Shown in pieces: positions 27-10,317 of a stretch of DNA of 40,353 bases. Position numbers and translations under genes: made by a program. This DNA comes from Monosiga brevicollis MX1 (Eukaryota), in assembly GCF_000002865.3 (NCBI RefSeq), contig NW_001865082.1, positions 129,894-170,246 on the forward strand. The letters are read 5' to 3'. A model generated the notes under the pieces. That model was not told where the DNA came from. It ran no database searches and saw only the letters and a list, made by a program, of their open reading frames with translations. Position 1 is the stretch's first letter; each line of letters opens with the position of its first letter.

Positions 27-3000
27 TCAAGCCGACCGCGCAGGTACCAAGACACGGCTGCCTGCGCCTCTCGACTGTTGACCGTCAAAAATTGACCCAA
101 AAAACCAATGACCGCCGGATCCCCTGATCGACACTCTCGAGGATATGATTGGTGGCGAGGCAGGCCCTAAGGTCATCAGAAGAAAAAGCATAGAAAAGAA
201 ATCATAACGCCACCATTCAAAAAGGCACCGCATTCACATCTGTACGCATGCACGGTGCTTGGTGCTACAATCCATACAGCGGGCCAAAGCTCGCACCTGC
301 CCCGAGTCACGATTGCGCCTCTGTTCCAAAGCCATGTGCAGCTGGACACACAACTGTCTGGCAGCCGTCACGTCCAAAAAAACTCGCTGGTCAATGGCAT
401 GACCCAGTCTCGTTGCTGCTACAAGGTCTTTTCGCTCGGCTACGGCGTGTGCAGCCAGAAGCCGTTCCCGCACCTCGCTTTTGTCCCCCCAATGCCCACA
501 GCACGAAAACCCACAGTGACAGCGGTCATAAATCGAAATGTGGACTATGAGCCTTGATAGTGATGCTGACGTTTGGGGGGGGGGGGGGGGGGGGGGGNNN
601 NNNNNNNNNNNNNNNNNNNNNNNNNNNNNNNNNNNNNNNNNNNNNNNACTCTGCAGGCAGGGTCTGCGCCACGCCGCCGTACATCCAACTGGAGCGCACC
701 GCTTAGCTCGCATAGATTGCCAAATCGATCCTGTACTCACACCACAGTCATTCAGCCTTGAGTGCATCTGTTTAGTGCAAAAAGATCGAGAAAGCACGCA
801 TCTGCTGAACATGATCCAACCTTGACCTCCAGCTGAAGGTCTTCGAGTAGCCGATTTTTGCCTTCCACATTGCAGACAGCTAACCGTGCAATGATGCGGT
901 GAGAGGCGCCGGATCGAGATGCTGGACATCACTGGCATCCACCGGAAACAGTCAAAAGGTGCCAATGCCACGTACAGATTTCTTGCGTTTTTGAGGCAAC
1001 CAGGGCATTAGGGGCGTCCGCAGAAACAACAAGGGAGCAAGCGGCCGAATACTCTCGCTTTGGATTAGCTCTGTTGATGAACGCGCCCAGCAGAAAGATT
1101 TAGACAGGCCAGAATAATCAACAAGTGTGTCTTGCGCCGTACGCCAGCGGCGGGGCCTGATTTACCGTTGGGCCAGCGCAAAGACACGAACAGCACCGGC
1201 CAGCTTGAAAATCTTATCCGTTGTGACTTTAAGGACTTTGCCCTCAGGCTCCAAGACCATGTCGACCTGTCAGATCGGAACGAGCATCAGATGTCGATCA
1301 GTAGGGAAAAATGTGTGCATACATCGTGAGCAGTGCGACGTGAGTAGAAGCGTCACCTTTTCTTTCGTCACTGCGTGGTGAAGCGTGACGCTAAGGCGCC
1401 CGTAGCCGCGGGCCAACCATTGACTGGCATCGATGGGTTCAGCCTGGTCATGCCCAATCAGCGCCAGGTAGAGGGGGGGCACATGGCTGCCGGCTGGCAC
1501 ACGGGCAATGTCACCCGTGCTCTGAGACGTCAGAATCAGATGAGAATACGCGGTCCAGGTGATCGGGGTGCTTGGGGTCACTCAATCGAAAACCTCTTTT
1601 TTTAATCATTATTTTCATTCTTATCTTACCTGAACGGGCTCCGGTGTTGGCATGATCTGTTGAGAGCCAACCGAAGAACAGCACAAATTTTTTTCAAATG
1701 AGTGCGGGAGATCACTATCAAGTAATTTGATGCTTTGCACAGACATACCCAAAGAGCTGACACACGCAATGGGTCGTAAGAGACCAACAAATGGAGTGGA
1801 GGATTTAATATCACATGTGGTTGGGTTGCATCCTAAAAGTAGCCACACACGAGCCATGAGAGAGCCATCCAAATCGGCAATATTTTGTCTCCGCTTGAGG
1901 CAGCATTCTTGATGCATCAAGGCAAGAAAGGGATTGTGACTTAAAACGCACCTTGGGCGCCAGCTTGAACTGCAAATCTGCCGTGCCAGCATCGCCTTGA
2001 ACAATAAAACTTGGCAGCTTGAGCGAAGGTCCATTGAGCTCGACGGAAATGGATGATTTGATTTGAAGGCGCGGCTACTCAGAGCGAATTATACGTCCAG
2101 TCCAAAAGTGCCGCGATCAGATGAGGTTTGAAAGACGGTTGGACGGGCCAGAATTGCAAGATGAAATGTGTGGCCATACCGGATTGGCGTTAAGCAGTGT
2201 GGCCACAAGCTTGTAGCCTCGCAAATCTAGACTCGCAAATAAAGGCACAAAAAGCACAGCAGGTCATCAAACATATGCCAGTGCTCAGGTTTGTGGCAAA
2301 CAAGCGGGAGCTGGGCTCACATTCGTCAGCACAGAGCTCAAAATCCTGATCAACAATGTTGATTTCATAGTCACGATCCAAGGGTTGACCGTAAATCATT
2401 GGCACGAGATGGTCCCAGCTCGTCTCGCCACCCTAGCAAGGAAGCCACCGCGCGCGCGTGCGCGCTCGTACGTGATGAAACTGCTGAAATGTGCAAAACT
2501 GCATTGCGCCCAAAAGCAATTGCCGGCATGGCTTGTTCAGCCAAATTTCAACAGACCTTGCCCTCGAATTCAGGAAACAGCAGGCGGTGCGGCTGGCCAG
2601 GCAATGCGACCAAAGTAACGCTTGCTTGGCAAACGCTGCCCAGCACGACATCAACCTGCGCCAGTACAAAGTCAAGCAGGATAGCAGGTGGTTGAGAATG
2701 TACTAAATTCATGGACACGAAGAACTCGGTCAGCTCCATCGTGAGCAAAGAGCTTTGCTGCGTGCACCCCGTGCATATCGATGTACTTTGATCAGGCCTG
2801 GCAAAAACAGAAAAGCGTACTTTGAAGGTTTCGGGTGCGCAGGTGACCTTGAAATTGTACAGCAAAATGAAAGTCTCATCTTGGGAGAGCGTCTGGGCGA
2901 AGGCTCGAATGAGTGACAAGGCACCTCACCGTGCAAGGTTCACAGTCCGATTCACACATCCAACCTGAATCATTTGATCAGTGTCAAGCCTGGAGCGCGA

Positions 3001-9000: not shown

Positions 9001-10317
9001 AGCTTAATCGTGGACGAGTGGTGGATGGGATACTTGACGGACCCTATGCGCTCGCTGAGGGTGAAGCCATGGATGGCCCAGTCACGGAGAGACTTTTCGA
9101 CCATGCCATAGCCATTATCGGCAATAATTAAATGTGCGCGATCGTTTTGTTCAACCTAGGTTGAATCACATGCAAAATAAACAAGTGGCCGAAGCAACGA
9201 GTCGGAGCATCTTGGGGGACAGACAAGAAACAACAAAGACATTGTCTTGACAAGTAGCAAAGCACACGGGAAGGATAATGAAGCGTGGGGGTGTAAACCA
9301 ACCAAGCGGACGATGATATGCCTGTCCTTGCTGTGACGAGTGGCCATCAGGCTGTTGTCCACAAATTCGGCAATGGCAAAGGCTAGATGACGGGTGATGG
9401 GGCGTGCAATGAGATTGAGACTGAAGCTGTCGTCGGTCTGCGCAGCTGGACAGGTTAGCTCACCGATGGGCGATCCACCTTGAGACTCAAAGTACTCATA
9501 GTTGCCAGACTGCGTGACGGCATGTGGGTGCGGGGCGTGCTCGACTTGAGTCGAGCGGGTCGGCTATTGGAGGAGGGAAGAGCCGAGCGAGACCATGAAA
9601 GTGTGCATGAGTCTGTGGCAAGAATGACATTGCAGATGGACCTGGGGTGTTTGCAGAGAGCCGACAAAGAATGCAGGAGACGAACCCGCCGCAAACCAGG
9701 CTGTGAAGCGGGGACAATGTGCACTGCGTTGATGTGGCCCGCACTCAGGTCGGCTGCGGGCACGTTGGCGATGCGTGAGAATAGCCAGTCCGGCATCACA
9801 AAGAGGTGGGGGCCAGGAATGGGTTGTGATGGCGGTTAGTACGATGGCTGGGTTCCAAGCTGAGAGATGAACAACTTACGCCAGTGGGCAGCAGTGAGGG
9901 GTTCACCATTGGGCAGTTCCAAAGTAAATTCACTGTCAGATGGGTCAATGGTCTACACACGCAGCGCGAGTGGATGGTCGAACGTCAATGTGAGGAGAAC
10001 CGTCGAGGGGCGGATCGATACTGTCTGTCAAGCAGGGGATGTGGTGTGTCAAGGTTGCGACGCCAACCAGCTTGAGGTGGTCGAGGAGCTCCTCATAGTT
10101 CTCGGCGTTGTGCTGTGCTGTGCTGACCACGGCTCGCTCGGGGCGTTCATCCACGACCTGCAGATACACCTATTTCCAGAAACGAGCAGTATGAGCACAC
10201 GTTCATCAACAAAGTCAGGGGTGCGAAGACAGGCGAGAACCAGAAAGGAGCAGACACAACCCTAAAAAACAAAAAACGGTCGAGCCAGATCAAAGCCCTT
10301 ACGTTGGTGACCGCCAT
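27..10317 (-). CDS. SMCHD1: SMCHD1-like protein (N-terminal UBL-like region, GHKL ATPase, long linker, coiled coil, diverged SMC hinge); many introns
   Basis: Spliced exons give MAVTN|VYLQVVDERPE (ATG 10317), HAPHPHAVTQSGNYEYFESQGGSPI|AFAIAEFVDNSLMAT (~9540-9340), IIADNGYGMVEKSLRDWAI (~9130-9070), LNSFISFFGAGSKQGGFFLG (~8870-8805), LAYIYHYYLHG (~8060), VQGQLRYHPFVQDHETLP (~7575-7520), IYWNGRLI (~7200), WTVTTNKLTL (~6900) and QWLEECHRDLDKEIQY (~6560). These match recalled vertebrate SMCHD1 motifs in the same order. Hinge-like segments lie at ~100-1500. The stop at 27-29 is tentative. Confidence 0.9.
575..647. other. Poly-G run (575-597) followed by a 50-N assembly gap (598-647)
   Basis: Directly visible; lies within the 3' (hinge) part of the SMCHD1-like gene. 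Confidence 0.99.
8179..8281. repeat. (GA)n microsatellite in an SMCHD1-like intron
   Basis: About 100 bp of perfect GA, just upstream (minus strand) of the acceptor TTGTACCACAG|GACGTG. Confidence 0.97.

What the first reader, a model, noticed from the sequence alone, without database searches (positions are those of the whole stretch)
27..10317. Full-length SMCHD1 with intact ATPase motifs in an apparently unicellular eukaryote
Seen: GHKL motifs are intact (AEFVDNS with catalytic Glu and Asn, DNGYGM, FFGAGSK), followed in order by SMCHD1-specific transducer motifs, a linker and a hinge-like end. Known: SMCHD1 is studied mainly in mammals (X inactivation, D4Z4 and imprinted-cluster silencing), with GMI1 as a plant relative. 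Inference: if the host is a choanoflagellate, this shows a pre-animal SMCHD1 whose role (repeat silencing, DNA repair) is uncharacterised. Phylogenomic surveys may already list it.
Basis: partly seen in the sequence, partly recalled or inferred. Interest (0 to 1): 0.7.

Follow-up and report, generated by a model that had tools for sequence, protein, structure and literature searches.

The report
Choanoflagellate SMCHD1 chromatin ATPase gene
The choanoflagellate Monosiga brevicollis has one spliced gene built like the mammalian gene-silencing protein SMCHD1, with the catalytic residues kept; it likely compacts chromatin, but similar genes are already catalogued in many protists, so the find is modest.

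Summary
The gene is real. One exon matches a Monosiga brevicollis record at 100% (a partial 402-aa model). A single spliced contig in each of four runs of one study covers the gene. The rebuilt frame has no stop over 1,609 codons, then a 317-nt assembly gap, then the hinge in the same frame. Catalytic Glu, Asn, Asp, Thr and the switch Lys are kept. The only PDB match of the partial record is SMCHD1, and it passes Pfam SMCHD1_S5. Two corrections: the gene does not end at base 27 but runs off the window inside the hinge, and the N-terminal ubiquitin-like domain is unconfirmed. It is not a lone pre-animal case: relatives occur in three other choanoflagellates, amoebozoans, green algae and a foraminiferan, some already named SMCHD1 by NCBI. 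Iyer 2008 called the MORC-hinge fusion an ancient eukaryotic lineage. This scan found the family four times before on other genomes. Function in Monosiga is untested; chromatin compaction for silencing, without DNA methylation, is most likely.

The parts
1..10488 (-). SMCHD1-family transcript; 46 exons seen in the window, more hidden in the N gap and past base 1
   Evidence: One spliced contig of 6,885-6,909 nt in each of X3, X4, X5, X6; exon table (44 exons to the gap, 2 after it)
10315..10317 (-). Start ATG, first in frame after a stop at 10333-10335
   Evidence: contig position 166, in frame with the hinge exon
9564..10169 (-). N-terminal ~85 aa in the position of the ubiquitin-like domain (three exons); fold not confirmed
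   Evidence: Aligns by position but 29 of 500 and 100 of 1,000 shuffles score as well
7853..9548 (-). Strap plus GHKL ATPase domain (aa 92-342)
   Evidence: 212 bits against a profile of 16 animal-type homologues, 0 of 200 shuffles
9351..9371 (-). Motif I AEFVDNS: E125 and N129 (human E147, N151)
   Evidence: E and N each in 32 of 33 rows, 1 gap; register against 6MW7 and PMC6620310
9102..9119 (-). Motif II DNGYGM (D159; human D184, G188)
   Evidence: Aligned to 6MW7 (E 0.37 for this exon alone); D, G, G in 32 of 33 rows
8828..8848 (-). Motif III FFGAGSK (human Y234-G238 region)
   Evidence: Exon alone hits 6MW7 first, E 0.0017
8417..8419 (-). Motif IV Thr, T288 (likely human T320)
   Evidence: T in 33 of 33 rows
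6505..7774 (-). S5 transducer domain (aa 369-586) with a long acidic loop
   Evidence: PF22899 98.9 bits, cut-off 27, on P0001; 110.8 bits; exon limits here inferred
6879..6881 (-). Switch lysine K528 in TTNKL (human K525)
   Evidence: Aligned to 6MW7; K in 33 of 33 rows
5791..6486 (-). BAH-like region (aa 593-716)
   Evidence: 23.4 bits against the matching region of animal-type homologues, best shuffle 3.4; the name BAH is from PMC4628070
674..5748 (-). Linker of about 870 aa with D-x-x-G-N motifs at aa 1225 and 1585
   Evidence: 3 of 8 linker segments match in order at 18-25 bits; the others weak, out of place or absent
598..647 (.). Assembly gap hiding 317 nt of message (about 106 aa, likely pre-hinge coiled coil)
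297..479 (-). Pre-hinge exon (aa 1716-1776); its upstream limit is uncertain
   Evidence: Laid piece 296-479; open frame
1..166 (-). Start of the SMC hinge, cut by the window edge
   Evidence: Pfam SMC_hinge positions 3-39 of 116, E 0.0069, below cut-off; own hinge profile E 1.7e-7

Best explanation
This is the Monosiga brevicollis orthologue of SMCHD1, a spliced gene with an intact GHKL ATPase module, a long linker and the start of an SMC hinge, which likely works as a hinge-joined homodimer that bridges and compacts chromatin at silenced regions. Shown: the gene, its splicing, the domain order, the catalytic residues and its place among choanoflagellate and animal homologues. Inferred from mammalian work: the hinge dimerises and binds DNA, ATP closes and reopens the N-terminal clamp, and this cycle tunes where the protein stays. 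Inferred from the host group: targeting would rest on histone marks (H3K9me or H3K27me3 over repeats), not on DNA methylation. Odds: orthology about 0.95; active ATPase about 0.9; silencing or compaction as main role about 0.55.
For: Host: 100% match to MONBRDRAFT_39255. One open frame: 23 of 24 listed joints are GT-AG or GC-AG, the other spans the gap; 20 further introns were inferred and the tool reported 20 unlisted joints. Family: P0001 hits only 6MW7 in the PDB at E up to 1 (1.2e-24); a 10-sequence family profile gives SMCHD1 1.8e-155 against 0.0068 for the best MORC. Tree of 33 rows: model with Choanoeca (SH-aLRT 92), choanoflagellates with animals (84), chlorophytes 99. Spacing from the last D-x-x-G-N to the hinge is 209 aa against 195-226 in 5 of 9 homologues. 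Mechanism: abstracts of 10.1101/2025.07.08.663435, PMC13434421 and 10.64898/2026.09.14.751594; passages of PMC6620310. Host context: no DNMTs in the earlier unicellular holozoan genomes (PMC11244446); H3K9 and H3K27 methylation in Salpingoeca rosetta, with H3K27me3 on retrotransposons (PMC12572184).
Against: No functional data for any protist copy was found. Most of the hinge and the C-terminal coiled coil lie outside the window. The ubiquitin-like domain, needed for N-terminal dimerisation in human, was not confirmed. LRIF1 and HP1, on which mammalian chromatin binding depends, could not be sought: no genome is held. The histone-mark data are from S. rosetta, not this species. No starred branch holds the model in the tree, which is a quick tree without bootstrap, has long branches and holds no MORC or GMI1 row; in the first tree the model was unresolved. 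All four spliced contigs come from one study. GMI1 and mammalian SMCHD1 also act in break repair.
Confidence: 0.55

Rival explanations
1. Same protein, but its main job is DNA double-strand break repair, as reported for plant GMI1; silencing is a later animal use.
For: GMI1 is described as acting in break repair (PMC5651269 passages); papers on SMCHD1 at damage sites are cited in PMC4628070. The family is kept in hosts with very different silencing systems.
Against: No repair data here. Purified SMCHD1 compacts DNA and nucleosome arrays by itself (abstract), which fits a general chromatin role.
Confidence: 0.25
2. A general, mark-independent chromosome organiser (compartments, telomeres, replication timing) with no specific silencing targets.
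For: DNA binding is weak and sequence-independent (abstract); no LRIF1 or HP1 partner was shown here; SMCHD1 maintains genome compartments in human cells (PMC12297321, search listing only).
Against: ATP hydrolysis drives selective enrichment in mammals (abstract), and the catalytic residues are kept here.
Confidence: 0.15
3. The ATPase is a MORC or other GHKL, or the exons belong to two or more genes, as the 402-aa annotation suggests.
For: The public model covers the ATPase region only; 317 nt of the message were not read; the lay tool warns that a contig across two genes shows no single transcript.
Against: Single spliced contig, start codon and hinge in one frame, no stop in the 1,725 codons read. 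No Morc6_S5 hit on P0001 at E up to 0.01. Homologues carry the same parts in one chain.
Confidence: 0.03

Closest known systems
Animal SMCHD1 (human N-terminal module 6MW7)
   Same: Domain order; motifs I-IV and switch Lys; acidic loop in the transducer; size (estimated 2,050-2,120 aa against 1,900-2,100 in animal hits); 24-30% identity over 690-1,450 aa to animal-type hits.
   Different: N-terminal ubiquitin-like domain too diverged to confirm; acidic loop longer (63 aa with 17 D/E against 39-41 aa with 9-11 in four animal-type rows); host group lacks DNA methyltransferases; LRIF1 and HP1 not tested.
Protist SMCHD1-family proteins (Choanoeca, Didymoeca, Stephanoeca, Cavenderia, Dictyostelium citrinum, Pelomyxa, Chlorella, Chlamydomonas, Volvox, Nonionella)
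   Same: GHKL + PF22899 and, in most full-length rows, a hinge-like end; Choanoeca is the nearest row in the tree.
   Different: Nothing essential seen. The Monosiga gene is on record only as a 402-aa partial model that skips motifs II-IV.
Arabidopsis GMI1
   Same: GHKL module coupled to a C-terminal SMC hinge (PMC5651269 passages).
   Different: No GMI1 sequence was retrieved, so no direct comparison was made; reported role is break repair.
MORC1-4 and plant MORCs
   Same: GHKL + S5 clamp; the ESM Atlas's best feature hit was a plant MORC cluster at 0.89, a lead only.
   Different: No hinge or long linker; family profile E 0.0068 or weaker; S5 domain scores as SMCHD1_S5, not Morc6_S5.

Membership tests
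SMCHD1 | GHKL motifs I-IV with catalytic Glu and Asn | tested here: met
   E125, N129, D159, G163, motif III, T288; definitions from PMC6620310
SMCHD1 | SMCHD1-type S5 transducer with switch Lys | tested here: met
   PF22899 98.9 bits, cut-off 27; K528 aligns with K525
SMCHD1 | N-terminal ubiquitin-like domain | tested here: inconclusive
   Right length and position; no hit to the animal profile; 29 of 500 and 100 of 1,000 shuffles as good
SMCHD1 | BAH-like region after the transducer | tested here: met
   23.4 bits, 0 of 200 shuffles; homology to the animal region, fold not predicted
SMCHD1 | Long linker of about 900 aa | tested here: met
   Open frame; 3 of 8 segments match in order at 18-25 bits
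SMCHD1 | SMC hinge in the same chain | tested here: met
   Hinge start in frame on the same contig; first third only
SMCHD1 | Complete hinge with dimerisation glycines and C-terminal coiled coil | not testable with these tools
   Outside the window; no genome held; no protein record found for the hinge exon
SMCHD1 | Groups with animal SMCHD1 in a tree | tested here: met
   Choanoflagellates plus animals SH-aLRT 84, unstarred; no MORC or GMI1 outgroup
SMCHD1 | ATP hydrolysis, homodimer, LRIF1-HP1 binding, silencing | not testable with these tools
   Needs bench work or the genome
MORC (canonical) | MORC-type S5 and closeness to MORC2-4 | tested here: not met
   No Morc6_S5 at E up to 0.01; no MORC chain among PDB hits of P0001
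GMI1 | Closer to land-plant GMI1 than to animal SMCHD1 | not tested
   No row named GMI1 among the 46 or the 30 looked up

The most novel reading that the evidence does not exclude
SMCHD1 is an ancestral eukaryotic heterochromatin clamp. In choanoflagellates, which lack DNA methylation, it silences retrotransposons and cell-type genes through histone marks and without the LRIF1 adaptor, with the long acidic loop and a remodelled N-terminal domain serving recruitment. X inactivation and D4Z4 silencing would be later reuses of this role.
Probability: 0.25. Interest if true: 0.65.

Novelty: new member of a known kind. Interest (0 to 1): 0.27.

Why it matters
SMCHD1 is studied almost only in mammals, where X inactivation, DNA methylation and LRIF1-HP1 are entangled. 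A copy in the sister group of animals, in a host group without DNA methyltransferases, lets one ask what the protein does without them, and whether silencing or repair came first. The practical gain here is a corrected gene model: the public one misses three of the ATP-binding motifs and about four fifths of the chain. The advantage is not unique, since Chlamydomonas and dictyostelids carry the family too.

Tried and rejected
No genome is held, so LRIF1, HP1, DNMT, MORC and second SMCHD1 copies could not be sought. No holder is on record as RNA; I rely on the canonical joints of the contigs instead. A first exon search with strict splice thresholds solved 1 of 5 segments; relaxed thresholds solved all 5, with 8, 553, 319, 1 and 106 candidate chains, of which I took the best-scoring; margins were 2.5-7.4 score units where there were rivals, so single limits between 3,386 and 8,117 may be off. 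The 402-aa annotation was rejected as a model: it reads through an intron and skips exons that the contigs hold. Frame 27-233 was rejected as coding. The hinge exon found no protein record and only chance PDB hits; the motif I stretch with its intron found no PDB hit. ESM Atlas gave nothing at 0.9 or more. No structure was predicted: the only window protein on record lacks the ATPase core. The last homologue search, meant to bring MORC and GMI1 outgroups, returned 46 rows, all with PF22899. The careful tree did not return; the quick tree was used. P0001, P0031 and P0036 and rows covering under 370 of 513 residues were left out of the first tree (41 rows); the second tree used 32 chosen homologues. 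Paper searches for SMCHD1 with choanoflagellate, Monosiga, or invertebrate + evolutionary + GHKL + homolog: 0; with eukaryotic common ancestor, Dictyostelium, Chlamydomonas: 1, 2, 3 papers, off topic by title; one search was too loose to inform. Not held: the GMI1 paper, Grau-Bove 2022, the 2008 parasitic-protist survey. Supplements that may list this gene were not seen: PMC2292703 holds 189 characters, and files 13-16 of PMC6040629 were not searched.

Full report
Observation. Two raw frames already hit Pfam SMCHD1_S5 weakly. The stretch 9306-9563 is identical to a record named MONBRDRAFT_39255, partial, of Monosiga brevicollis, so the host is a choanoflagellate.

Gene structure. Runs X3-X6 (one study; recorded only as guessed RNA) each hold one contig of 6,885-6,909 nt that lies on the window in pieces, while X1 lies unspliced. 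Of 24 listed joints, 22 are GT-AG, one GC-AG and one spans the N gap. One more intron (8118-8401) follows from matching loose ends. Twenty joints were not listed; I inferred them from contig coordinates, per-bin coverage, splice scores and frame, and the best chains gave exactly 20. The result is 4,828 nt from the ATG at 10317 to base 655 with no stop in 1,609 codons, 317 nt of message missing from the window, then 116 codons open to base 2. The contigs continue 1,226-1,244 nt beyond base 1. Nine homologues have 259-327 aa from hinge start to end, which fits that room and gives an estimated 2,050-2,120 aa. The public 402-aa model reads through one intron and lacks motifs II, III and IV; no full-length record of this protein turned up.

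Domains. Against regional profiles from 16 animal-type homologues the model scores 212 bits for GHKL, 110.8 for the transducer, 23.4 for the BAH-like region and 10.2 for the hinge start, with 0 of 200 shuffles as high; 3 of 8 linker segments match in order at 18-25 bits, the rest are weak, misplaced or fall in the gap. A hinge profile from 16 homologues picks the frame at 166-2 as best of 1,210 peptides. The residues that PMC6620310 names as catalytic (passages) are kept: E125, N129, D159, G163, T288, K528, and likely the lid arginine R182. The N-terminal 90 aa sit where the ubiquitin-like domain should be and align plausibly by eye, but two shuffle tests were not significant. The acidic transducer loop is longer than in the animal rows examined.

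Family and spread. P0001 matches only SMCHD1 in the PDB and passes the SMCHD1_S5 cut-off with no MORC S5 hit. A family profile separates SMCHD1 from MORC by about 150 orders of magnitude in E-value. The representative search gave 75 proteins including the query; I looked up 30. Named non-animal rows were Choanoeca flexa, Didymoeca costata, Stephanoeca diplocostata, Cavenderia fasciculata, Dictyostelium citrinum, Volvox carteri, Cymbomonas and two from Nonionella stella. A further search gave 46 rows, among them Chlamydomonas and records of Chlorella, Scenedesmus and Pelomyxa that NCBI already names SMCHD1. No named row was from Salpingoeca, a fungus or a land plant; these searches cannot show absence. 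In a quick tree of 33 rows the model joins Choanoeca (92), and choanoflagellates join animals (84), apart from chlorophytes and amoebozoans. That fits vertical descent, with modest support and no outgroup.

Mechanism. By inference from mammals, the protein dimerises through the hinge, binds and bridges DNA, compacts it, and uses ATP to regulate this and to select sites (abstracts only; passages of PMC4628070). DNA methyltransferases are reported absent from the earlier unicellular holozoan genomes, with one putative DNMT3 among choanoflagellate transcriptomes (PMC11244446 passages). S. rosetta has H3K9 and H3K27 methylation, with H3K27me3 on retrotransposons; that paper does not mention SMCHD1 (PMC12572184 passages). 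Silencing through histone marks is therefore my lead reading (0.55), break repair as in GMI1 the main rival (0.25), general organisation third (0.15). None was tested.

Novelty. [quoted passage not shown] Searches pairing SMCHD1 with choanoflagellate or Monosiga found no paper in the held library; unseen supplements and subscription papers may list it. Earlier notes of this scan report the family in four other protist genomes; they are unchecked and not independent support. Verdict: a sound new member of a known, widespread family, with a useful gene-model correction. Interest 0.27.

Noticed in passing
window 598-647: The 50-N gap is larger than drawn: 317 nt of message are missing, and a DNA contig has 575 unlaid letters before base 655.
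   Followed up: partly
window 655-10317: Very intron-dense gene: 43 introns before the gap, median 108 nt, 31 of 43 in phase 0, one GC-AG intron at 3136-3235.
   Followed up: partly
window 8178-8281: A (GA)n microsatellite of about 100 nt inside the longest intron; the annotation skips the four exons just upstream of it.
   Followed up: no
window 7228-7329 (-): Acidic loop in the transducer, longer than in animal homologues; green algal homologues have still longer, low-complexity inserts at the same place.
   Followed up: partly
window 15544-16874 (-): Frames with Antistasin-family repeats (PF02822, E 1e-9 and 8e-7), just downstream of the next item and perhaps the same gene.
   Followed up: no
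window 18522-20175 (-): Pectinacetylesterase/Notum-family exons (PF03283, best E 2e-27). From recall, animal Notum acts on Wnt, which choanoflagellates lack.
   Followed up: no
window 22847-24376 (+); 36063-36497 (-); 37306-37887 (+): Ankyrin-repeat frame, CAP C-terminal domain and aminoacyl-tRNA editing domain; no chromatin-related neighbour among 36 frames scanned.
   Followed up: no
P0028 and P0074; P0036: Nonionella stella has two diverged SMCHD1-like proteins; P0036 is an SMCHD1 model interrupted by retroelement domains.
   Followed up: no
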